Assembly: GCA_965218095.1 (NCBI GenBank)
Contig: OZ244587.1
Span: 128,001-192,000, forward strand
Direction: 5' to 3'
DNA length: 64,000 bases
DNA from: Candidatus Poribacteria bacterium
GTDB taxonomy: Bacteria > Poribacteria > WGA-4E > PCPOR2b
Shown: positions 930 to 17,579 of the stretch, piece after piece
Layout of the letters: the number at the start of each line of letters is the position of its first letter
Numbering within the stretch: position 1 is the first letter of the stretch
Notes under the pieces: generated by a model
Told to the model about the DNA's origin: nothing
The model's database searches: none
Seen by the model: the letters and a program-made list of their open reading frames with translations, nothing else
Translations under genes and position numbers: made by a program

Positions 930-1349
930 TTGTCGTTACCTCGATTCTGGAAGATGTCACTTCTTGCACTTTGCCCCATATTCTGACATAAAGTTCCGGT
1001 GATTCGACATCAAAAAATGGGCCTATCAGGAAAAATCACCCCGGCATCCCAATCGGATTGAACCGGAAACGGGGAAGTGTTGTCCAAAACTGTATTCATG
1101 TAAAGTCAAGGAGAAAAAACTAGGAAATTTATTTGACAGCGGACTCGCCGATTTGCAAGTTCACACCGTAACTCGTATTAACCATACGAGTTTTTCACTT
1201 ACAGTCCAATGGCGCCGGCCGAGTGGGAGTTTACGACGTATCGAGACCAAGCAGATCGCTGCTAGCTTGGTTTCGATACGCTTCGCTACTTAACCGGCGT
1301 TCGCTAACTGAAAAAGTTGTATTAACCAGGCCACCTCTCTACAGGCTGT

Positions 1350-2570
1350 TTACGTCCCCCAACTGGCAATAAAGTCCTCGACACCGAAATCGGCCGGCAT
1401 CTCGTTGAAGTAGTAGCGCATTGGTCCCGATTGAAAGCCAGGGAAAAAGTGCTCCTCGCCTGCCTGAAGCCTGGTATTGAGCATCTTAAACCGCTCCCAT
1501 AGAGTTTCCGCCTCTGTCTGCGAGAAGCGATTGGCGAATTCTGGCCCCCAGTTCAAGGTGGTCGGGTGCCCACTCATCCCACGTCTGCAAAGGTCGTCAG
1601 GGATTTCCTCAAGGCCGGGGCGTCTTCGGAGATTGATAAAGCAAGCCGCTTTGCACAGAAACACGGTCGTGAGCATCACCCCTTTTTCGCCCCGGCCCGG
1701 CTGGAGTTTTTCCAGCGCAGTGTGGTAGGCACGGCTATCTTTTTCAATTGCGGCACGAAGCACAGACTCGGTGACATCCTGCATCTGCTTGCTGCGCTGC
1801 GCCCAGCGCTCAAGTGTCGCTTGGGCTAGGGTGGATAGATGCTTCGTGTAACTTAGGTCTTCATATTTCGTGAAGTTGCAGAAACCGCCATGAATGGTGC
1901 GTCGCATTCTGGTGCTGTAGTTGCTGCCCCAGTGTAAGATAGGCATGATGTAGACCACGCCGTCGCCAGCATTGAGGTGCGTTTGGACGGCACCGGGCAA
2001 CGGCACACGCGGGTCAGCCAGCAACTGACGGTCTTCTTCTTCGGTGTTGATACGAAGGTGGCTGCCAGGCACGACCCAAAGCACGTCGTCGTCGTAGAGA
2101 GGAATGTTCCACTGCACATAGCGAGGTCCCGTCTCGATGATGTCATCGATGTAGCCCTGGAGTGGTGCGGTGTCAATGGGATGAAGATCGCGATGCCATG
2201 CGGCTGGGCCACAATCGTGCACCGGATTACACATCAGCATCATCTCTGTTACCGCCGCGTCTGGTTCCTCCATCAGTTCAGCACTGATGCCTTGCGTGTT
2301 TTCGTGGAGCCAGATTTCCACTGTGTTGGCGGTCTGCTCGTCGATGAGATTTACCAGAGGACGTCGATCCAGAAGCAACCGCGGTTGCACGTCGGTCTCC
2401 CATACGCCGCCGGGCGGGTCGTCCGGTTTGCGGTCGCGTGCCCAGATTTCTCGCTGTCGATCGACCATGATCTCATAACCGGCGCGCAAAGCTCCCAGCT
2501 CATCCGGCGGGATGACGTTACGCAGGACCAGATACCCGTCTTCCATGAATTGGTCTTGATTGACTTGCAT
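1350..2570 (-). CDS. Phytanoyl-CoA dioxygenase (PhyH)-family Fe(II)/2OG dioxygenase
   Basis: F-x-EDGYLVLRNVI, WHRD, VVPGSH, AGDGV..HWG. Start moved to MQVNQDQF, which follows a GGAGG RBS. Confidence 0.85.
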   Translation of the reverse strand: MQVNQDQFMEDGYLVLRNVIPPDELGALRAGYEIMVDRQREIWARDRKPDDPPGGVWETDVQPRLLLDRRPLVNLIDEQTANTVEIWLHENTQGISAELMEEPDAAVTEMMLMCNPVHDCGPAAWHRDLHPIDTAPLQGYIDDIIETGPRYVQWNIPLYDDDVLWVVPGSHLRINTEEEDRQLLADPRVPLPGAVQTHLNAGDGVVYIMPILHWGSNYSTRMRRTIHGGFCNFTKYEDLSYTKHLSTLAQATLERWAQRSKQMQDVTESVLRAAIEKDSRAYHTALEKLQPGRGEKGVMLTTVFLCKAACFINLRRRPGLEEIPDDLCRRGMSGHPTTLNWGPEFANRFSQTEAETLWERFKMLNTRLQAGEEHFFPGFQSGPMRYYFNEMPADFGVEDFIASWGT

Positions 2571-2632: not shown

Positions 2633-3199
2633 TCAGGGAATTAGGGGGTAACAGATTTGCACATCGATTGAAGGCCTTGTCAGTACAGACGTAATCTTCT
2701 CAACAATACCATCCGCACGACTACGAATCTCCTCCTGCGTCAGACTCTGGATGGGATGTTCAACAGTCGTCGGGTGGAAGTCGCGGTAGCCGAGCGACTT
2801 GGCTTGGACTTCTCCGGCGGCGAAAAACACATCCGAGCAGATCGCCACGCTTGGGATGCCGCGTTCTTCTAAAGCCGTTCCATCGTGCACACTGCACGAT
2901 ATACACGACCCTCAGTCCGCCAGCCCTTCAACCACAAAGTCGCACTGATCAGCAAGCTGCATGATAGTTTCCATCGGGGCGGGACGCGCAAATGTCGGTT
3001 TTCTCGCGTGAATTATATCCGCGAGCTCGAATTGCTCGCGCATGAGTTCTTCGACACGTTCGAGGAAAATATCGCTGCCATTTTTGCCGATGTTCAGCAC
3101 CCCCATCACCTTGCCGTTAAGGTCGTCAAGACGCGGCGCGAGAAATTTGTCGGATGTGTTGCTTGGAGCCATTGGATCGAGTAAAATTGTGTTTGTCAT
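2633..3199 (-). CDS. UGSC-family selenoprotein (in-frame UGA at 2914-2912)
   Basis: ORFs 2912-3199 and 2633-2890 are in frame; the junction reads EGLAD-TGA-GSCISCSVHDG (UGSC motif), with a hairpin immediately downstream. Confidence 0.9.
2882..2900 (-). promoter_or_regulatory. Bacterial SECIS-like hairpin
   Basis: ATCGTGCA-GTG-TGCACGAT, a perfect 8-bp stem starting 12 nt after the UGA; loop begins with G. Confidence 0.8.
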
Positions 3200-10060: not shown

Positions 10061-10307
10061 TGTCACTAACGTGTGAAAGCCTTTTGGGGTCTCCCTCTCC
10101 GCTTAGGCAGTTGCCAAAGCGGTGCTGGCGCCACATAGCAGAACAGTTGTCTGACACGCCATTGATGATCTGTTATCCCGGCGACCGTCGCCGGCGTGTA
10201 TTCACCCATCTTTCTTTCCTCCTAAAAAAAGAATGTCAGAGAGTGTGTCCCGAAAATTCCCAGTGGGACACACTTTCTGAGTGATGAAATTTCTTCTGCC
10301 AAAAGTT

Positions 10308-11360
10308 TCAGAACGAACGTGACATCGTAAGGGAAACAGTTGTTCCGAGTTCAAAAGCGTCACCTTCATCTGATAATGTCCTTCGGTGCAATGGCAGCAT
10401 AACGGAAAAGCGTGTTGGTATGTCGTATCCAGCATTCACCGTTGTACCGAACAACACTGCATTGAGTACTAAACCTGAGTTAATATCCCGCTCACCGTCC
10501 CAGTGGGCGTAGGATTGGTAAAACCCCAGATAGGTCGTATGAAGCGCAAGCCAATCTAGCAGGTGATATTTCACTTCTGCTGTCGAAGTTACTTCCACAG
10601 ACCCACGATAGGTTTTGCTGTTTTCATAGAACGGAAATTGCCCTCTGACAGAAGCACTCAGCGAAAAATCACTAAAGAGTGGCGTTCCGTAATGTAGTTC
10701 AGCCAATGGATTGAACGTCCTTGTTCCAAACTGGATATGGAGATGTTCCAATCCAGCATCACCCAACTCGAATGGGTTTTCCTCTGTCTTGCCTATCGGA
10801 ATGCTCGTTCCCAGTGATGCAACCAGGTCGTCGCTTTCGCGCAAGACACCAAACCTTCTGTGAGAAAACAGAAGCCTGAAATCGGAGAATCCTCGATAGG
10901 TTTCATCGCGGTGGTGGATATTCTGGTTTGCAAGTATCGCCCCGCGCTCGCGGGGGGACGTGGATTCAATTTCCTCAACGCTTGCGTCCTGACTCTTGAT
11001 TCCATAAGGCACACTGAGTAAGACTTCCCAGCTATCAGCTATGCTATACCCAATGCCCAAATCCACACGAAGAAAATCAAGAGAGACAAGGTGTCTGTGC
11101 AGTGGTGACTTAATAACTTGCCGAGTCGGGGAAAGTCCCTTCGTCTCTAAATGTCCACCGTCAGAGTCAAAACCTCTTAGTACATTGAGAGAGACCCGAA
11201 ATTTACGTGTGTCTTCTGAAGCCGAACCGACTTCATCTATCCCGCTACGCGGAATTGCGGGATTGCTTCAAGCGCCGCACGATTCTTGACCGAATGCAAA
11301 CGGCAAGAGATGGAAGAAACCAAGTAGCAGCGTGGTTAAAAAGACTGTCGTTTTCATCAT
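10308..11360 (-). CDS. Putative outer-membrane beta-barrel selenoprotein with an N-terminal CxxU motif (UGA at 11270-11268)
   Basis: ATG 11360 MMKTTVFLTTLLLGFFHLLPFAFG-QESCGA-TGA-SNPAIP continues in frame into ORF 10308-11066. Signal peptide, amphipathic beta-strands, C-terminal Phe and a SECIS-like hairpin. Confidence 0.75.
11239..11255 (-). promoter_or_regulatory. Bacterial SECIS-like hairpin
   Basis: ATTCCGC-GTA-GCGGGAT (7 bp including one G-U); loop at +20..+22 from the UGA, the same spacing as the UGSC hairpin. Confidence 0.65.
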
Positions 11361-11456: not shown

Positions 11457-11903
11457 TTAGATATGAGAAAATTTGGGAGGTGAATGCGGTGGGGCGCGAG
11501 GGGAAGCCTGACAGATAGGAAAATATTCGTAGAAATTTAGGAATGGTCGAGGTCGGAGAGTGGTTTCATAAGAAGAAGAGAAAGCAGAAGGGGAAGGAAG
11601 TATGACGGTTAGCGAAAATGTTGTGTGAAATAGCTTGCTCAAATCCAAATCGTTAGATTCGTTTGGGATGGTGAGTTTCAATCCAACGAAGCAACAGTTT
11701 CCAATTTGAGGCTTTTCCTGTTGAGGCGTATTTTTAGTCCCTGTGTTGCAGTGATTTGAGCAGCTTGGGCATGATGGGATTTTTCCAATTGAGGTGGAGT
11801 CCAGGACAGAGAATCCACAATCCCCCTGCATGAGGGCTGGACAGAGATTGTAGAATGAAAAGCCGAAAAGGAAAAGGATAGATATAATTGGCTTTATCTT
11901 CAT
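11457..11903 (-). CDS. DUF2946/CruR/CutF-like protein (signal peptide, CxxC, C-terminal RAPP motif)
   Basis: MKIKPIISILFLFG..., SCPSCSNHC, NCC, and PRAPP ending 9 residues before the C-terminus. Confidence 0.7.
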   Translation of the reverse strand: MKIKPIISILFLFGFSFYNLCPALMQGDCGFSVLDSTSIGKIPSCPSCSNHCNTGTKNTPQQEKPQIGNCCFVGLKLTIPNESNDLDLSKLFHTTFSLTVILPSPSAFSSSYETTLRPRPFLNFYEYFPICQASPRAPPHSPPKFSHI

Positions 11904-12125
11904 CGTTGATTTAGCTCTACGAGGTGTTGTGAAGGGCAATGGACAAGATTATACAGGATAGTTTCCTTCGGATTCAAGGTGCGTTTACTATGATACTTGG
12001 ACGATTAGGGCGTCGGTGGGTTTACTGCTAGTGTTTAAATATTTACCCCTGCTTCCTCTGCACACATAAATGCGGTAGCTTCTTCAGCGCAGTTTTCTGT
12101 GAGCCGGAAAACGGGAAATCGGGAT

Positions 12126-13616
12126 TTATGAAGATGTCACCAACTTCGTAGAAATCTTGAGACGGCGCCGTACGAACTGTGATACGGAGTCAATGCACAT
12201 GTTGAGCACCGCCGTGACAAGAATAAGTAGAATCACCTTATCAAGCTGGTCATCGGAAATTGCACTGTCAATATAAAATCCCAGCGTGTAGATGCCAAGG
12301 AGGCCGAGGATGGCGGACTCCCGCATCATCACCTCCCAACGGTAAAACAGGAAGGCAAGGAACTGTCCGTATACCCGCGGAAGGATCTCAAAAAAATACC
12401 GGTCCATCCGTTTGCGGGGCGCATCCATCCGTAGGGAGATCAGGTCTGCGTTGTTGCTGCTCAGGAAGGCGAGGATGGCCCCATTGTGCAACAAAATTGC
12501 CCAGACAGCCGGGAGCATGGACGGCCCCCAGAGTTGTACAAAGATATACGCCAGAATGTACTCCGGGGTTGTGCGAATGACGATCAGGGCGTAGTGCGAA
12601 ATCCGATTAGCGATCTTCCCCGCGAAATGCCGGCAGGCTGAAGGAAAGCTCAACAGCGTAAACACGCCGGTCCCCATCAGCACGATCTGTGTTAGCACCA
12701 CCGTGTTCCACACCCCTTCCCATGCCTCTTGGACAAAAATCTCCTTCGCCCATCGCAGGACGGGGCCCCAGGCGAACGATACCGCGTGGGTACCATCCAT
12801 CAACCCCTCCCGGCGCATTGGCCACGGCAGAATCTCGTACGTGAAGAAGCGAAGGACGTTTTCCCAGGACAGTGCGATTTCCTGTGACAGCAGCACAAAC
12901 GCCGCCGCAACATAAAATGGCGCCAGACGGGGCTTGAGCCAGTACTTGAGTGAGGCAACCAGGAGGTAGAAAGCGTAGAGCAGCGCCGCAGCCTCTGAGT
13001 ACATGCCTTCGCGAAATGCGGTCTCAAGATGAAATCCGAGCGTCGGCAGCCCAATGAATCCGAGAATCGCGCTGGAGCGTAGGGCGCACTCGAAACGGTA
13101 GCCGGTATAGTGTTTGGCGTCGGCATAGATGATAGGAAGGATGCCATAGACAAAGCGGCTCAAACCTCCAGACGCTCTAGGAACGCCCTCTAGTGGACGC
13201 CGATCCGACTCCTGAATAATCTCTGCATACACCTTGGCAAAGATACCAGCATAGGGAATCGCGATGGCGAGCACACCGCAGATTGGGTTGAGTCCAACAA
13301 TAGGGAGGAAGATGAAAGCCCAGAAAATCTCGTGAATGGCGCGGATAAAAGCGCAGAACAACCTGACAGGGGTAAAACGGAAGACGAACGCCAGCCCGAT
13401 ACCAAGTACTACACCCAGAAAAATACCGCAGAGGGCAAAGACCACCGTGTTGAGCAGCGCAGATTTCAAACCCCAGAGGGCAGGAACATCCGGGGTGATT
13501 GCGCCCCAGGCCATTCGGCTCAGTTCTGTCCAGGGGTGCAATGTGGAGATTTCAAGGTCTGCCAACAGGAGAGCTATCAGGGCAATCGCGACAAAGAAAA
13601 GGCTGGTTCTCAACAT
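12126..13616 (-). CDS. PhnE/PtxC-like ABC permease (two fused permease domains)
   Basis: RAIHEIFWA, GIFAKVYAE, YRFECALRSSAILGFIG, YRWEVMMRESAILGLLG. Confidence 0.88.
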   Translation of the reverse strand: MLRTSLFFVAIALIALLLADLEISTLHPWTELSRMAWGAITPDVPALWGLKSALLNTVVFALCGIFLGVVLGIGLAFVFRFTPVRLFCAFIRAIHEIFWAFIFLPIVGLNPICGVLAIAIPYAGIFAKVYAEIIQESDRRPLEGVPRASGGLSRFVYGILPIIYADAKHYTGYRFECALRSSAILGFIGLPTLGFHLETAFREGMYSEAAALLYAFYLLVASLKYWLKPRLAPFYVAAAFVLLSQEIALSWENVLRFFTYEILPWPMRREGLMDGTHAVSFAWGPVLRWAKEIFVQEAWEGVWNTVVLTQIVLMGTGVFTLLSFPSACRHFAGKIANRISHYALIVIRTTPEYILAYIFVQLWGPSMLPAVWAILLHNGAILAFLSSNNADLISLRMDAPRKRMDRYFFEILPRVYGQFLAFLFYRWEVMMRESAILGLLGIYTLGFYIDSAISDDQLDKVILLILVTAVLNMCIDSVSQFVRRRLKISTKLVTSS

Positions 13617-13648
13617 AGCAATGGTATAACCTTTGAAAGGTTCTGAAT

Positions 13649-14335
13649 TTAAAGGGTTTTCTCATTCCGATACAGTTCCGTAAGCATTGTTTGCGTCACT
13701 TCCCCGGCTGGCAGATCGAATTGAATCTCCCCATCACGAAGCCCGACCATCCGTTGTGCGAACTTTAGGGCGAATTCCACCGCGTGCAGTGACACCACAA
13801 CGGTTTCCGTATTCTGGATAATGATTTCCATCACCGTGCCTGCCTGGTGGGGGTCTATTGAGGATACCGGTTCATCCGCCAACAGGATATCCTCTCCGCG
13901 GTAAATCGCACGCGCAACGGCTACCCGCTGCTGCTGTCCTCCAGACAGCGCACCAGCCTTTTCAAAGGTTTTCTCCTCCATCCCCAGTGCGCGTAGGATG
14001 GGAGCGATTTCCCGCAACACCTTCTTCTGCGGCTTAATTAGGTTCAGGAGATTGTAGGCTGTGGAATGCCGATCAAGCCGCCCAATATAGATATTGTGGA
14101 AGGCAGAGAGCTGCGGCGCCAGGGCATAGTGCTGATGCACAAATGCAGACTGGTCCGCAACGCTTTCGTAGAGTGTGCGCAGCAAGGTGGTTTTGCCGGC
14201 GCCGCTCGGACCCACCAGCGCGACCTTTTCTCCCCTGTCGATTTGCAGAGTGATATTTTTCAAGGCAACGTTGTGTTGGTAGGCTACACTTTCTGCAACC
14301 AGACTAAACAGCGCGGTATCGGCAGGTGACTTCAT
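13649..14335 (-). CDS. PhnC-like ABC transporter ATP-binding protein
   Basis: GPSGAGKT, LSGGQQQRVAVARA, LADEPVSSIDP. Confidence 0.9.
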   Translation of the reverse strand: MKSPADTALFSLVAESVAYQHNVALKNITLQIDRGEKVALVGPSGAGKTTLLRTLYESVADQSAFVHQHYALAPQLSAFHNIYIGRLDRHSTAYNLLNLIKPQKKVLREIAPILRALGMEEKTFEKAGALSGGQQQRVAVARAIYRGEDILLADEPVSSIDPHQAGTVMEIIIQNTETVVVSLHAVEFALKFAQRMVGLRDGEIQFDLPAGEVTQTMLTELYRNEKTL

Positions 14336-14818: not shown

Positions 14819-15949
14819 TTATTTTTCGATAAGGAATAGGAATTCTCTATTTGGCAGTTCCGCATCGCTTAGCCATTCATTGGTCCAGCACATTCTAGCC
14901 ATCACGTTCTTTTTGTAATCGATTTCTATCACATCCAAGAGCGTACCGTTCGCCCTGATGACCTCGTTGAGCTCATCCGCTGTTGCGCGACCGCCAGAGC
15001 TGTATGACAAGATGACGAACTTGGCTTGCACCCTTCTGATGAGACGCTCAATTGCCTCAACCGCGACAAATTGACCGCTACCATCACGGCGGAATTCTTC
15101 AAAAACGGATGATGCAACCTTGTCGGATGTGTCTGTTCTTCGTTTCGCTTTTCCAAAGAGTTCCGCCCGATCGTAAAGGCAGATGCTTGTCCAAATGTGA
15201 TAGTAAGCGGCGTATCGCACCCGTGAAGGCGGCATCTTCTCGCTATTAGAACCGTAAGGCGGATCGAGATATGCCAAATCTACATCGACATCATTGATTA
15301 TCTCAAAGACATCAGCACGAGACACCTGATGCTCATGCTCGGTCGAAAAGAGCATCGGCACCCTTAACTGAAGATGATTGTAAGATCGAGGAGACCAGTC
15401 TTTGAGGTATGAGGCGAAATGCCCAAGGGTGCTATCAACTTTATCAAGTGCAAGAATCAGACTCGTTATGGCGACCGCTTTATCAACAGTCTCGAGATGG
15501 AGAGATTCTATTTCATCACGGATGCCATCCAGCTTTCTTGTGTTGTGTATTTGCCAAGGCTTCTTCATGCCATCCGACTGAATCGCCGATCCGCCATTCG
15601 GCAGCCCACCGTAGTGTTCGGTGAACCAACCATCAACCGGCTTTGTGTGATTGAGGTGAGCTATCAGCTCCTTATATGCATCCGGTCTCTTTTGGGTTCG
15701 CAAGTAGCAGTCGCCCAAAACCTCAGACCACACGGCGATGTCGTTGCAATAAACGCTGTATCCCGATTTGGCAAAGGCTTGAGAGACACGGGTGGTGCCT
15801 GAAAAGGCGTCAAATACCGTCTCTGCTTTAACTCGTTTAGCGAGTTGGAGAATATATGGGAGCAACTTGAGTTTTGAGCCGGCATATTTGATGCCTTCTG
15901 TGGGTGGCGCGTCAACGACAAGCTCATCAAATAGTGATCGTGCCTGCAT
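14819..15949 (-). CDS. DNA adenine methyltransferase (D12 class, alpha type)
   Basis: IKYAGSKLKL, DAFSGT, YLDPPY. Start at MQARSLF overlaps the upstream stop (TAATG). Confidence 0.88.
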   Translation of the reverse strand: MQARSLFDELVVDAPPTEGIKYAGSKLKLLPYILQLAKRVKAETVFDAFSGTTRVSQAFAKSGYSVYCNDIAVWSEVLGDCYLRTQKRPDAYKELIAHLNHTKPVDGWFTEHYGGLPNGGSAIQSDGMKKPWQIHNTRKLDGIRDEIESLHLETVDKAVAITSLILALDKVDSTLGHFASYLKDWSPRSYNHLQLRVPMLFSTEHEHQVSRADVFEIINDVDVDLAYLDPPYGSNSEKMPPSRVRYAAYYHIWTSICLYDRAELFGKAKRRTDTSDKVASSVFEEFRRDGSGQFVAVEAIERLIRRVQAKFVILSYSSGGRATADELNEVIRANGTLLDVIEIDYKKNVMARMCWTNEWLSDAELPNREFLFLIEK

Positions 15950-16160
15950 TATTGACCCATCCCTGATATCTTCTTGAGTTGAAAAATATCTTCTTTGACT
16001 TTTTCGAGAGCCCCCTGATGGCCAGCTTCGGAAGATACCAGAGCGTGAGAGAATAGCTTTACGAGAACGAGGTTGTGTGAATAGTCGATCCAACCATTGG
16101 TAATGCTATCAAAGTATTTCAACCCCTTTTTGGTATGAGTCCAAAGGCCACGTTGTAAGG
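15949..16160 (-). pseudogene. 3' remnant of a gene translationally coupled to the MTase (possibly its endonuclease)
   Basis: Open frame GLWTHTKKGLKYFDSITNGWIDYSHNLVLVKLF...ISGMGQ-TAA with no start codon. Confidence 0.4.
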
Positions 16161-16397
16161 ATTAGTAGTCGTCATAGTGATAAATTTCTGCCCAACTCTT
16201 GATTAGACGGATTTTTTCGCATCACACAATACCAGAGGTGTTATACGGAATTTTGCTGATAAACGGCTGGTTAAGTGCTGTACGACTTGAATTTTAATGA
16301 TGCTCTCGCGTTTGTTTATTTGACCTCTTGGAGTTGGTCAGCCAACCATAAATTGGCCAATGTTTCGGGTAAAACTCCCTACACACGCGCTCGTGTT

Positions 16398-17579
16398 TCA
16401 ATCCGTAGCAATGCCAAGCTCGGATACGTCGATCTCGCCGGAGATGAATTTCGGGAGCAGCAGATCGCGGGTTTGGCGTAGGTTGGCGTTTTTAAGATCT
16501 AAAGCAACAATGTTATCAAAAATAGGTTCAATCATTTTGTTGAATCTGTCTAACAAACTTTGCGGAGGCGAAAGGGTTGGAATCCTATTCAGATTGTGTT
16601 GGTTAATCTTTGGCTGTGCGGTGCCTGTAATATAACTCGAAATGGCTACGTTGGACATGAACAAATAAAGAAAGTTTGTCGAAATCGGAGCTTTTCCTTG
16701 AACGACATGTGTATGATTATTTACCCAGAATTTACCAGTTACTAACTGTAGTACAGGCTTCCCATCTTCGGTAATAACACTGCCATCTTCCGCAATTAAT
16801 AAATACCTCCCATCAAATAGATAACCGTTGATATGATCTAAGATTTTAGCAGCACCATAATATGGATATTCACCTTGCATGGTGGATCTAGCCATCCCTG
16901 ACAGTGGTTTCCGCTGACGATCAAAGTTAAGGGAAACTTCGCCAAAGCTCTTTACCTCCCACCCCTGCGGTATCAACCCCAACTCCGACTCCACCATCTC
17001 CACCTGCTCATGTCTCGGAAAGCGGAACTCGACAAACCATTGTCGGTAGATTGTTTGCGCCATCTCCTCAAGGATCTTGATGCGGCGGGTGTTGTTTTCA
17101 ATCAAGTCGTCGTAGGGACTGAGGACTGCGGCGATTTTGCGTTGGATTTGGTAAGGTGGTAGGGATAATCTTATTGCTTTCAGATTTGCTTGCGATAGCT
17201 TAGGCTGTGCAGTTCCTGTAATATAGCCTGAGATATTAGCAGACTGGATATAGCTCATCAAAAAATAATCGTCAGCAACTCCGGGTATACCTTGAACAAT
17301 ATGAGCATGATTATTGACCCAGAATTTGCCGGATGCAAAGAAGGCGATAGGTGTCTTTCTTTCCACGAGGTTTGCGCCATCTTCAGAAATCAGCAAGTAT
17401 CCTCTATCGAAAATATAATCATCAATGTAATCAATAATTCCCGATGCCCCGTAATACGGATACTTTCCCTGCCTTTGACTTCTCTGCTTGGTACTCAAAG
17501 GTATGCGTTTGTGATCGTAGAGTTCAATCACTTCACCGAAAGTTGTCTCTGTCCACGAATCTGTCATACCGTCTCCCAT
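16398..17579 (-). CDS. hsdS: Type I restriction-modification specificity subunit (orphan)
   Basis: TRD-CR-TRD-CR layout; QRKIAAVLS..DDLIENN, LIPQGWEV, LRQTRDLLLPKFISGEIDV. Confidence 0.92.
   Translation of the reverse strand: MGDGMTDSWTETTFGEVIELYDHKRIPLSTKQRSQRQGKYPYYGASGIIDYIDDYIFDRGYLLISEDGANLVERKTPIAFFASGKFWVNNHAHIVQGIPGVADDYFLMSYIQSANISGYITGTAQPKLSQANLKAIRLSLPPYQIQRKIAAVLSPYDDLIENNTRRIKILEEMAQTIYRQWFVEFRFPRHEQVEMVESELGLIPQGWEVKSFGEVSLNFDRQRKPLSGMARSTMQGEYPYYGAAKILDHINGYLFDGRYLLIAEDGSVITEDGKPVLQLVTGKFWVNNHTHVVQGKAPISTNFLYLFMSNVAISSYITGTAQPKINQHNLNRIPTLSPPQSLLDRFNKMIEPIFDNIVALDLKNANLRQTRDLLLPKFISGEIDVSELGIATD

What the first reader, a model, noticed from the sequence alone, without database searches (positions are those of the whole stretch)
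10308..11360. Candidate new selenoprotein: secreted beta-barrel with an N-terminal Cys-x-x-Sec motif
Seen: the called ORF (10308-11066) lacks a signal peptide. Reading through TGA 11270-11268 gives a 350-aa protein: signal peptide, then QES-C-G-A-U-SNP, His-rich segments (HRH, NIHH, EHLH), amphipathic strands and a terminal Phe. A hairpin ATTCCGC-GTA-GCGGGAT follows the UGA. Known: CxxU is the classic redox or metal-binding selenoprotein motif, and another Sec gene lies 8 kb away. Inference: an outer-membrane channel (resembling the MetA-pathway/PF13557 barrels) using Sec for metal binding or redox gating. I know of no characterised outer-membrane porin selenoprotein.
Basis: partly seen in the sequence, partly recalled or inferred. 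Interest (0 to 1): 0.92.

Follow-up and report, generated by a model that had tools for sequence, protein, structure and literature searches.

The report
Selenocysteine outer-membrane barrel for soft metals
This gene most likely encodes a previously undescribed selenoprotein, a secreted 12-stranded membrane barrel whose flexible N-terminal tail carries a Cys/Sec-x-x-Sec motif, and whose cysteine relatives sit inside mercury-resistance operons.

Summary
On the minus strand, ATG 11357 to 10311 is one 349-codon frame, interrupted only by TGA 11270-11268.

The TGA is a conserved feature. It is followed by S-N-P in 35 of 35 Poribacteria loci read. Three codons upstream stands TGA in 29 loci and TGC/TGT in 6. 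Seven loci from Acidobacteriota, Gemmatimonadota and one uncultured bacterium read U-P-A-U-SNP. Seventeen Bacteroidota loci read C-P-A-C-SNP.

The genome holds SelA, SelB, tRNA-Sec and a Sec-containing SelD. Two tandem hairpins follow the UGA. They show compensatory changes and recur in the other Sec-bearing phyla.

AlphaFold gives a confident barrel (pLDDT 86.5). Its closest solved folds are the COG4313 channel and FapF. The N-terminal tail stays disordered.

No Pfam or NCBIfam model matches. A 2026 inventory of 119 selenoprotein families does not list it.

Context points to soft metals. An HMA-thioredoxin gene lies directly upstream in 23 of 24 non-Poribacteria loci, often with MerTP and MerA. 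A Cus-like efflux cluster lies beside one Poribacteria paralogue.

Verdict: a new selenoprotein family, probably an outer-membrane mercury/copper-handling component. Sec insertion and metal binding are untested.

The parts
10308..11357 (-). Whole gene: 349 codons (11357-10311) plus terminal TGA (10310-10308); ATG 11360 is an alternative start
   Evidence: full-length matches with in-frame TGA in 141 of 176 genomes of the phylum
11289..11357 (-). Predicted signal peptide, residues 1-23 (MKTTVFLTTLLLGFFHLLPFAFG), cleavage inferred before Q24
   Evidence: By eye only (Lys, hydrophobic core, small residues before Q); the same layout stands upstream of the motif in all loci printed; no predictor was run
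11277..11279 (-). Codon 27, TGC (Cys) here; TGA in 29 of 35 Poribacteria loci read
   Evidence: the tree needs at least 4 switches between C and U at this site
11268..11270 (-). Codon 30, in-frame TGA, read as selenocysteine
   Evidence: TGA in 35 of 35 Poribacteria loci and in 9 of 9 other Sec-form loci; TGY (Cys) in 17 Bacteroidota loci
11239..11263 (-). Hairpin 1 (nt 8-32 from the U of UGA): AUCCCGC/GCGGGAU. The alternative 5' arm AUUCCGC (nt 16-22) puts a GUA loop at nt 23-25
   Evidence: 88-97% of cells paired per helix, with compensatory changes. The loop of the alternative fold sits at the same nt 23-25 as in the UGSC gene's SECIS; the selD loop is at nt 21-24, same genome
11217..11235 (-). 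Hairpin 2 (nt 36-54): 7-8 bp stem with a GUU-type apical loop
   Evidence: 95.5% of cells paired, 4 of 7 pairs changed on both sides (G-C 16, A-U 12 at one pair). Present in 9 of 9 Sec forms outside the 35, and not a conserved pattern in 17 Cys forms
10311..11210 (-). Barrel domain, residues about 50-349: 12 strands. Conserved His-rich loops HHR[DN]E and EHLHIQFGTGTF[ND]P; C-terminal Phe
   Evidence: AlphaFold pLDDT above 90 over this range; Foldseek hits 4RL8 and FapF; invariant H89, H148, H149, H205, H207, D159, W286 in 57 sequences
11457..11939 (-). Upstream small Cys-rich ORF (probable start MKIKP at 11903), possibly co-transcribed
   Evidence: Homologues upstream in L006, L008, L009. A weakly similar small Cys-rich ORF (pairwise E 7e-6) lies upstream of all 33 CPAU-type loci. 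No Pfam or NCBIfam hit. The promoter-like site 11977-11948 is a consensus match only

Best explanation
The gene encodes a secreted selenoprotein of a previously undescribed family.

Proposed anatomy: after signal-peptide removal, the mature protein starts with Q-E-S-C-G-A-U-S-N-P. This is a Cys/Sec-x-x-Sec pair at the tip of a flexible tail of about 25 residues. A 12-stranded outer-membrane beta-barrel of the COG4313/FapF type follows. Its long inward-folding loops carry invariant histidines.

Proposed decoding: UGA-30 (and in most relatives also UGA-27) is read as selenocysteine by the genome's SelA/SelB/tRNA-Sec/SelD machinery. Two tandem mRNA hairpins directly downstream direct this.

Proposed function (inferred): the thiol/selenol or diselenol pair binds soft metal ions, Hg(II) foremost and Cu(I)/Ag(I) possibly. 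It passes them between the barrel lumen and periplasmic metal carriers. The protein would then be the outer-membrane member of a thiol-relay metal-handling pathway. In Bacteroidota, Acidobacteriota and Gemmatimonadota the likely partner is the HMA-thioredoxin protein encoded next door, with MerTP and MerA. In one Poribacteria paralogue the neighbour is a Cus-like efflux system.

Shown by computation: the conserved UGA, the Cys counterparts, the covarying hairpins, the Sec machinery, the barrel fold and the neighbourhoods.

Inferred: Sec insertion itself, which hairpin binds SelB, outer-membrane location, metal specificity and direction of transport.
For: (1) Reading frame and motif.

(2) Called homologues all begin just after the TGA and cover at most 90% of the query.

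(3) 141 of 176 genomes of the phylum have a match, and the listed full-length matches carry 1-3 in-frame TGA. TGA at codon 30 in 35 of 35 loci; TGA (29) or TGC/TGT (6) at codon 27.

(4) Sec/Cys counterparts across phyla: U-P-A-U-SNP in 7 loci (Acidobacteriota, Gemmatimonadota, one uncultured bacterium) and C-P-A-C-SNP in 17 Bacteroidota loci. Further CxxC forms appear among distant representatives. In the 57-sequence alignment both motif positions, N32 and P33 are invariant when C and U are counted alike.

(5) Codon 27 switches between C and U at least 4 times within the Poribacteria clade, including between near-identical sequences (quick IQ-TREE).

(6) Sec machinery in this genome: SelA 527 bits; SelB 353.7 bits, adjacent to a 94-nt tRNA-Sec; SelD with its own in-frame TGA. 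SelA is found in 171 of 176 genomes of the phylum.

(7) RNA. Two hairpins were predicted in all 13 Sec-form sequences folded and in the 9 further Sec forms. Hairpin 2 has 95.5% of cells paired and 4 of 7 pairs with changes on both sides, some of which alter the encoded residues (Gly-Ser to Ser-Leu). 0 of 500 shuffles reach the observed covariation score, and slid controls reach 22-60% pairing against 89-93% observed.

(8) Fold: pLDDT 86.5, pTM 0.83. Foldseek top hits are 4RL8, the COG4313 channel (E 3e-11, TM 0.70 on the target), and FapF.

(9) Context. An HMA+thioredoxin gene lies directly upstream on the same strand in 23 of 24 non-Poribacteria loci. Of the same 24 loci, MerTP occurs in 13, ArsR-type regulators in 10, CsoR-type regulators in 8 and CopA-type ATPases in 5. 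MerA was confirmed in 3 of 3 tested out of 5 motif-positive loci. One homologue is fused to an HMA domain. In Poribacteria CPAU-type loci, 33 of 33 have a small Cys-rich ORF upstream, 21 have a YHS protein, 20 an OEP and 20 a CusB-like adaptor with HMBD repeats downstream.
Against: - No experiment shows selenium in this protein.
- The window's own copy has none of the mer or cus neighbours. 0 of 53 Poribacteria loci have HMA-thioredoxin, MerTP, ArsR or CsoR homologues within 8 kb, so its function rests on homology.
- Neighbourhood links are to resistance loci in general and do not fix metal or direction.
- The N-terminal tail is not placed by AlphaFold (pLDDT below 50 in both models). No contact between the motif and the histidine cluster is shown, and I could not inspect coordinates.
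- Hairpin 2's loop lies about 44 nt from UGA-30 and 53 nt from UGA-27. This is farther than in the two reference genes and, as I recall it, outside the usual bSECISearch window.
- Hairpin 1's loop lacks a G in some sequences (for example L019 and L081).
- The shuffle control does not correct for relatedness, and coding constraints also conserve this stretch.
- Pfam PF13557 is not matched by this protein and only sub-threshold by relatives.
- The RNA-library contigs that cover parts of the gene prove neither transcription nor read-through.
Confidence: 0.68

Rival explanations
1. The TGA is a true stop. A short leader peptide is made, and the barrel is translated separately from an internal start (as gene callers annotate it), or the gene is a pseudogene.
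For: Gene callers start every Sec-form homologue after the TGA. One genome (G038) has a frame-shifted copy in three pieces.
Against: The frame, the motif and the signal peptide are conserved across the TGA in 35 of 35 plus 9 of 9 loci in at least three phyla. Bacteroidota encode the same N-terminus as one uninterrupted ORF with Cys. The internally started products lack any export signal although the fold is a membrane barrel. The called starts differ between homologues.
Confidence: 0.03
2. The UGA is read through, but not as selenocysteine. It could be read as Cys (by a tRNA-ReC-like route), or in this genome as Arg by the 75-nt tRNA with anticodon UCA, or as Trp or Gly under an altered code.
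For: ARAGORN finds a second UCA-anticodon tRNA with an ordinary 7/5 cloverleaf in this genome. A 2026 paper reports tRNA-ReC enriched in genomes with UxxU hydrogenases (PMC13582414, passages seen). Two database entries translate these TGAs as W.
Against: The UCA tRNA is a variant, seen so far only in this genome, of a conserved tRNA-Arg(UCG). All 5 orthologues inspected read UCG, although the tRNA itself is found in 165 of 176 genomes. It therefore cannot explain a TGA conserved across the phylum. TGA also terminates this very gene. Genome completeness is 93.87% under the standard code. Cys, not Trp, Arg or Gly, stands at the aligned site in Cys forms. Structured RNA follows the UGA only in the TGA forms. 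Partial Cys insertion at UGA cannot be excluded.
Confidence: 0.07
3. It is a genuine barrel selenoprotein, but the motif is a redox centre rather than a metal ligand. It could be a selenylsulfide/diselenide switch that gates a COG4313-like channel for hydrophobic or other solutes, or a periplasmic peroxide or disulfide reductase tethered to the outer membrane.
For: CxxU/UxxC motifs are mostly redox-active in known selenoproteins (review PMC13188914, section 7). The nearest solved fold is a channel for hydrophobic molecules by its entry title and my recollection. The conserved neighbour carries a thioredoxin domain. The window's own copy has no metal genes nearby.
Against: The thioredoxin neighbour is fused to an HMA metal-binding domain and sits with MerTP and MerA. 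One homologue is itself fused to HMA. The other Poribacteria paralogue adjoins YHS, CusB-HMBD and OEP genes. The invariant histidine cluster suggests a metal path. The two roles are not exclusive: the thioredoxin domain may simply keep the pair reduced.
Confidence: 0.2

Closest known systems
COG4313 / PF13557 (Phenol_MetA_deg) outer-membrane channels, solved as 4RL8 (Pseudomonas putida F1)
   Same: Best structural match (Foldseek E 3e-11, TM 0.70 normalised on the target). Similar size and 12 strands by DSSP. Some relatives carry precomputed or sub-threshold PF13557 hits. The ESM Atlas places a PF13557 cluster among the nearest clusters.
   Different: The Pfam model does not match this protein at E up to 1; sequence identity to 4RL8 is 11%. 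The N-terminal [C/U]xx[C/U]-SNP tail, the invariant His-rich loops, selenocysteine and the mer/cus neighbourhoods have no counterpart in what I know of that family (recalled).
HMA-type soft-metal selenoproteins and mer transport proteins (NF041115 UxxU metal-binding (seleno)protein; NF045683 MerT/CopZ fusion-like selenoprotein; MerP, MerT)
   Same: A paired Cys/Sec motif with two intervening residues, including UxxU. They are associated with mercury and copper handling, and they occur as neighbours of the Cys and Sec forms of this family.
   Different: An entirely different fold (a ferredoxin-like HMA domain or an inner-membrane helix bundle against an outer-membrane barrel). This protein matches none of those models.
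Previously predicted outer-membrane selenoproteins: GSU2204-family MtrB/PioB barrel (NF041027) and FCYXU-type TonB-dependent receptor (NF049945)
   Same: Outer-membrane beta-barrels predicted to contain Sec (review PMC13188914, Table 1). The TonB-dependent receptor also has a CxxU motif.
   Different: Much larger, unrelated barrels. No NCBIfam model hits this protein. Neither is listed with UxxU or an N-terminal tail motif.
PcoB/CopB-type outer-membrane copper-resistance barrels
   Same: A resistance-locus outer-membrane barrel preceded by a flexible metal-binding N-terminal region. This resemblance is recalled, not tested here.
   Different: As I recall, the ligands there are Met/His-rich rather than a Cys/Sec pair. 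No sequence or fold comparison was made here.

Membership tests
Bacterial selenoprotein gene (SelB/SECIS-dependent UGA recoding) | In-frame UGA conserved among orthologues, with coding conserved on both sides | tested here: met
   35 of 35 Poribacteria loci plus 9 of 9 other Sec-form loci; 141 of 176 genomes of the phylum have a match
Bacterial selenoprotein gene (SelB/SECIS-dependent UGA recoding) | Homologues with Cys at the position of the UGA | tested here: met
   C-P-A-C-SNP in 17 Bacteroidota loci; CxxC in distant representatives; C/U switching at codon 27
Bacterial selenoprotein gene (SelB/SECIS-dependent UGA recoding) | Stem-loop (bacterial SECIS) just downstream of the UGA, with G in the first or second loop position | tested here: inconclusive
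   Two covarying hairpins are present. Hairpin 1 is at the canonical distance, but its loop G is not universal. Hairpin 2 contains a GU-type motif in its loop in every Sec-form sequence read but lies about 44 nt away. SelB binding was not tested, and Rfam gathering thresholds gave no hit.
Bacterial selenoprotein gene (SelB/SECIS-dependent UGA recoding) | SelA, SelB, SelD and tRNA-Sec in the genome | tested here: met
Bacterial selenoprotein gene (SelB/SECIS-dependent UGA recoding) | Selenium shown in the protein | not testable with these tools
   Needs 75Se labelling or mass spectrometry
PF13557 / COG4313 outer-membrane channel | Match to the Pfam model above the gathering score | tested here: not met
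   0 families at E up to 1. Relatives score 18.3 and 19.3 bits against a cut-off of 22. A few homologues carry precomputed PF13557.
PF13557 / COG4313 outer-membrane channel | 12-stranded barrel fold like 4RL8 | tested here: met
NCBIfam selenoprotein models (NF041115, NF045683, NF041027, NF049945 and all others) | Match to any model | tested here: not met
   0 families at E up to 1 for P0001; 0 barrel-domain families for 10 Cys-form relatives
mer (mercury-resistance) operon component | Encoded beside MerT/MerP-type transporters and MerA under a metal regulator | tested here: not met
   Met for Bacteroidota relatives: MerTP 285 bits, MerA 503-514 bits, ArsR. Not met for the window's gene or for any of 53 Poribacteria loci.

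The most novel reading that the evidence does not exclude
This family is the missing dedicated outer-membrane step of mercury/copper thiol-relay systems. It would be a barrel that captures soft metals with a diselenol (UxxU) on a periplasmic tether and hands them to HMA carriers. Its two UGA codons, 9 nt apart, would be decoded through an unusual tandem-hairpin SECIS. Either each hairpin pre-loads its own SelB complex, or, in Poribacteria, the shared 3' arm re-pairs with a second 5' arm as the ribosome advances.
Probability: 0.3. Interest if true: 0.9.

Novelty: new variant of a known kind. Interest (0 to 1): 0.8.

Why it matters
- It would add a widespread, phylum-spanning family to the prokaryotic selenoproteome. 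Most members carry the rare double-Sec UxxU motif, and it is one of very few Sec proteins of the cell envelope.
- It would give mer and cus systems a candidate outer-membrane partner. A review figure legend I saw (PMC8261052) draws diffusion arrows and no outer-membrane Mer component, and I understand Hg(II) entry is usually assumed to be passive.
- Poribacteria are dominant sponge symbionts, so a selenium-dependent metal-handling protein bears on trace-element and mercury cycling in sponges.
- The two UGAs followed by two covarying hairpins offer a natural test case for how SelB serves closely spaced Sec codons. The 2026 hydrogenase paper raises this question explicitly (PMC13582414, passages).
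- Practically, gene callers truncate every Sec-form member, so the family is mis-annotated throughout public data.

Tried and rejected
- Rfam at gathering thresholds found nothing in the window. ARAGORN found no tRNA in the window.
- Pfam and NCBIfam gave no family for the protein or for the upstream small ORF.
- The PhnC/PhnE-like ABC genes upstream of the window's gene are not conserved neighbours in other loci, so I dropped the idea of an ABC-linked uptake operon.
- SelA co-occurrence could not discriminate, because SelA is near-universal in the phylum (171 of 176). Of the 141 genomes with the gene, 7 lack a strong SelA match (G031, G064, G071, G074, G111 weak; G076, G113 none). All 7 are fragmented assemblies.
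- A second AlphaFold run used 57 full-length mature sequences and was meant to see whether the N-terminal motif docks in the barrel. The tail stayed below pLDDT 50. Model coordinates are not exposed, so I could not map the histidines in three dimensions.
- Sponge metatranscriptome contigs (4 runs, one study, coded X1-X4) cover parts of 10203-11063. One 54-nt record reaches 11238-11282, but with fewer than 31 letters on either side of the TGA. This shows neither transcription nor read-through.
- The promoter/terminator scan gave no more sites than shuffles.
- The careful tree search did not finish in 300 s, so the quick IQ-TREE tree is what I cite. Several long branches (P0253, P0256, P0244, L107, P0258) make the deep order unsafe.
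- The 53 Poribacteria loci from genome contigs probably overlap the genomes reached by the genome search, so the counts are not independent.
- Literature searches for this family found nothing: Poribacteria + selenoprotein; UxxU + selenocysteine + bacteria; selenoprotein / outer membrane / beta-barrel; MerTP / Bacteroidetes / outer membrane; mer operon / Bacteroidetes / thioredoxin. Supplementary tables were closed and may list it as a hypothetical protein.
Full report
**The observation**

The minus strand of window 10308-11360 reads ATGATGAAA..., then a typical export signal (MKTTVFLTTLLLGFFHLLPFAFG). It continues QES-TGC-GGC-GCT-TGA-AGC-AAT-CCC and runs in the same frame into the ORF that a gene caller would start at GTG 11066. 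The TGA is at 11270-11268. Read through, the product has 349 residues and ends SRSF, followed by a terminal TGA. The 'other Sec gene' is real: window 2633-3199 (-) matches the UGSC selenoprotein family above its cut-off (156.4 against 125 bits), with TGA at 2914-2912.

**Is the TGA a mutation or a feature?**

A search of 5.8 billion proteins returned 564 relatives. None of the 120 listed covers more than 90% of the query, and the longest begin at the codon after 'U-S-N-P-A'. That is the pattern expected if every caller stopped at the same TGA.

A six-frame search of 176 genomes of the phylum found the gene in 141. The record titles of related loci name the phylum Candidatus Poribacteria. By family the counts were f1 10 of 28, f2 11 of 11, f3 7 of 7, f4 112 of 112, and 0 of 17 in the remaining families. 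All 150 listed matches carry 1-3 in-frame TGA except the three split pieces of G038.

I cut out 35 loci. All 35 have TGA followed by S-N-P at codon 30. Codon 27 is TGA in 29 and TGC/TGT in 6. The most distant members (39-47% identical) keep the motif.

A scan of species-representative genomes added:
- 7 loci from Acidobacteriota, Gemmatimonadota and one uncultured bacterium reading U-P-A-U-SNP;
- 17 Bacteroidota loci reading C-P-A-C-SNP as one uninterrupted ORF;
- one further locus made unreadable by masked bases.

More distant representatives read C-A-[AG]-C-x-N-P. In a 57-sequence alignment with U written as C, both motif positions, N32 and P33 are invariant.

On a quick maximum-likelihood tree the Poribacteria and the Bacteroidota each form one clade with full support. 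The CxxU state needs 5 changes, at least 4 of them forced by well-supported branches. These include the near-identical pair L013/L014 and two paralogues within one genome. Repeated Cys/Sec exchange at one site, with Cys at both sites in another phylum, is the classical signature of a selenoprotein family.

**Can this organism insert Sec?**

The genome has SelA (527 bits) and SelB (353.7 bits), which lies next to a 94-nt tRNA-Sec with the long variable arm. It also has a SelD that itself carries an in-frame TGA. SelA occurs in 171 of 176 genomes of the phylum, so co-occurrence cannot discriminate.

ARAGORN also reports a 75-nt UCA-anticodon tRNA with an ordinary cloverleaf. It is the local copy of a tRNA found in 165 of 176 genomes. 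In the five other loci I inspected, that tRNA is tRNA-Arg(UCG). The UCA version is so far specific to this genome and cannot explain a TGA conserved across phyla.

**The RNA downstream**

RNAfold predicts two tandem hairpins after UGA-30 in all 13 Poribacteria sequences folded and in the 9 further Sec forms from other phyla or unplaced bins.

Hairpin 1 spans nt 8-32, counting the U of UGA as 1. The second choice puts a GUA loop at nt 23-25.

In the same genome the UGSC gene has a 7-bp stem with a GUG loop at nt 23-25. selD has an AGUU loop at nt 21-24.

Hairpin 2 spans nt 36-54 and has a GUU-type loop in every sequence.

On the 35-sequence alignment:
- hairpin 2 is paired in 95.5% of cells;
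- 4 of its 7 pairs change on both sides (one pair is G-C in 16 and A-U in 12 sequences);
- the two versions of hairpin 1 are paired in 63-97% of cells per helix (63% for the two outermost pairs of the outer version, 83-97% for the other helices);
- no shuffle of 500 reaches the observed covariation score;
- sliding the partners drops pairing to 22-60%.

Some compensatory changes alter the protein (GGU-UCG, Gly-Ser, becomes AGU-UUG, Ser-Leu). This argues that the RNA constrains the codons and not the reverse.

The 17 Cys-form genes show no common two-hairpin pattern. Their mean folding energy is -15.7, against -20 to -26 kcal/mol for Sec forms, but base composition differs between the groups.

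Which hairpin binds SelB is open. Hairpin 1 is at the canonical distance but lacks a loop G in some sequences. Hairpin 2 always has a GU-type motif in its loop but is farther away than usual. The usual window is recalled from the bSECISearch description. The loop-G rule appears in a figure legend of PMC13582414.

**The protein**

AlphaFold with 55 relatives gives pLDDT 86.5 and pTM 0.83, with residues 50-349 mostly above 90. DSSP shows 12 long strands. There is a helix ending in the invariant H148-H149-R150. A long non-strand loop (187-216) carries the invariant E-H-L-H-I-Q-F-G-T-G-T-F.

Foldseek against the PDB puts the COG4313 outer-membrane channel 4RL8 first (E 3e-11). The FapF barrel comes next, then FadL/TodX-type channels. 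The Pfam model itself does not match; relatives reach 18-19 bits against a cut-off of 22.

A second model was built from 57 full-length mature sequences. It leaves the first 27 or so residues below pLDDT 50. The motif therefore sits on a flexible tail. If the barrel has the usual orientation, with both termini periplasmic (inferred), the tail lies in the periplasm or can enter the lumen.

**What it is for**

The window's own copy has no informative neighbours. The upstream PhnC/PhnE-like ABC genes are not conserved elsewhere, while a small Cys-rich ORF upstream is.

Relatives are informative. Counts for the 24 non-Poribacteria loci:

| Neighbour | Loci (of 24) |
|---|---|
| Exported HMA + thioredoxin fusion, directly upstream, same strand | 23 |
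| MerTP (285 bits, cut-off 180) | 13 |
| ArsR/SmtB regulator | 10 |
| CsoR-type repressor | 8 |
| CopA-type ATPase | 5 |
| HMA-bearing disulfide reductase | 5 |

The three disulfide reductases tested are MerA above cut-off (503-514 against 454 bits). A typical order is regulator, merTP, merA, HMA-Trx, barrel. One homologue is a barrel-HMA fusion.

Among 53 Poribacteria loci with 8-kb flanks, none has these genes. Of these, 33 are of the C-P-A-U paralogue. All 33 have a small Cys-rich ORF upstream. Downstream, 21 have a YHS-like protein, 20 an outer-membrane efflux protein and 20 a CusB-like adaptor with three HMBD repeats. The 20 U-G-A-U loci lack all of these.

Two independent kinds of soft-metal locus therefore adjoin this family. 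I conclude that the [C/U]xx[C/U] pair is most likely a soft-metal ligand. The barrel would be the outer-membrane member of a thiol/selenol relay. The thioredoxin domain would serve to keep the pair reduced. Direction (uptake for reduction by MerA, or export) and metal specificity are not determined. A purely redox role remains a live rival.

**Comparison with what is known**

The 2026 review of the prokaryotic selenoproteome (PMC13188914) lists 119 families. I read section 7, parts 1 and 2, including Table 1. Among the families are:
- an MtrB/PioB-type barrel and a TonB-dependent receptor;
- HMA-type UxxU proteins;
- MerT-type selenoproteins.

It lists no COG4313-like barrel with this motif. 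No NCBIfam model matches, and NCBIfam carries models for most listed families.

A paper on a flavobacterial MerA describes ArsR, MerT/P, MerA and a downstream 'hypothetical protein', with no outer-membrane component (PMC10587081, passages). The figure legend of a mer review says broken arrows depict diffusion and names no outer-membrane Mer component (PMC8261052, passages).

I therefore rate this a new selenoprotein family and a new architecture within known kinds: Sec/Cys metal-binding motifs and 12-stranded channels. Supplementary tables were closed and might list it.

**Limits**

- Everything is computational.
- Signal peptides were judged by eye.
- Relatedness inflates the covariation statistics.
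- The loci from two collections overlap.
- The tree is the quick version.
- RNA-library contigs covering parts of the gene are not evidence of expression.

Noticed in passing
window 2633-3199 (-): UGSC-family selenoprotein (NF041046, 156.4 bits) with in-frame TGA at 2914-2912. A 7-bp hairpin follows, with its GUG loop at nt 23-25. I used it as an internal SECIS reference.
   Followed up: yes
G000:C1:4577829-4577903 (-), outside the window (locus L054/L056): A 75-nt tRNA with an ordinary cloverleaf and anticodon UCA, in a tRNA cluster (Leu, Lys, Pro, His, Arg). Orthologues in five other Poribacteria loci are tRNA-Arg(UCG). The local copy differs in the third anticodon base and two neighbouring bases, leaving an A-C mismatch in the anticodon stem. 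It is either a possible opal suppressor or an assembly error.
   Followed up: partly
L079:about 1000-1700 (+), uncultured bacterium: The HMA-thioredoxin gene upstream of the UxxU barrel reads G-M-T-U-P-S-G-U, with two in-frame TGA inside the HMA metal-binding motif. It may be a second selenoprotein in the same operon.
   Followed up: no
window 11457-11939 (-) and the homologous position in L006, L008, L009 and 33 CPAU-type loci: A small exported or anchored Cys-rich protein of no known family is the most constant neighbour of the Poribacteria barrel genes. Similarity between the window's copy and the CPAU-type copy is weak (22% identity, pairwise E 7e-6).
   Followed up: partly
window 12126-14335 (-): A PhnE-like double permease (201 bits, below the 216.7 cut-off) and a PhnC-like ATPase (182 bits, below 266). 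No substrate-binding protein gene is seen beside them. They are not conserved next to the barrel gene elsewhere.
   Followed up: partly
G038:C56:9090-10115 (loci L035, L041, L042): The barrel gene of this genome is split into three pieces in different frames. This is either a pseudogene or an assembly error.
   Followed up: no
proteins P0177, P0180 and P0145: Two database entries show W at the TGA positions, so they were called with a TGA=Trp code. P0145 is a Cys-form barrel fused to a C-terminal HMA domain (Pfam E 5e-11).
   Followed up: partly
window 14819-17579 (-): A D12-class adenine methyltransferase and a type I restriction-modification specificity subunit lie upstream of the ABC genes. 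I saw no link to the finding.
   Followed up: no
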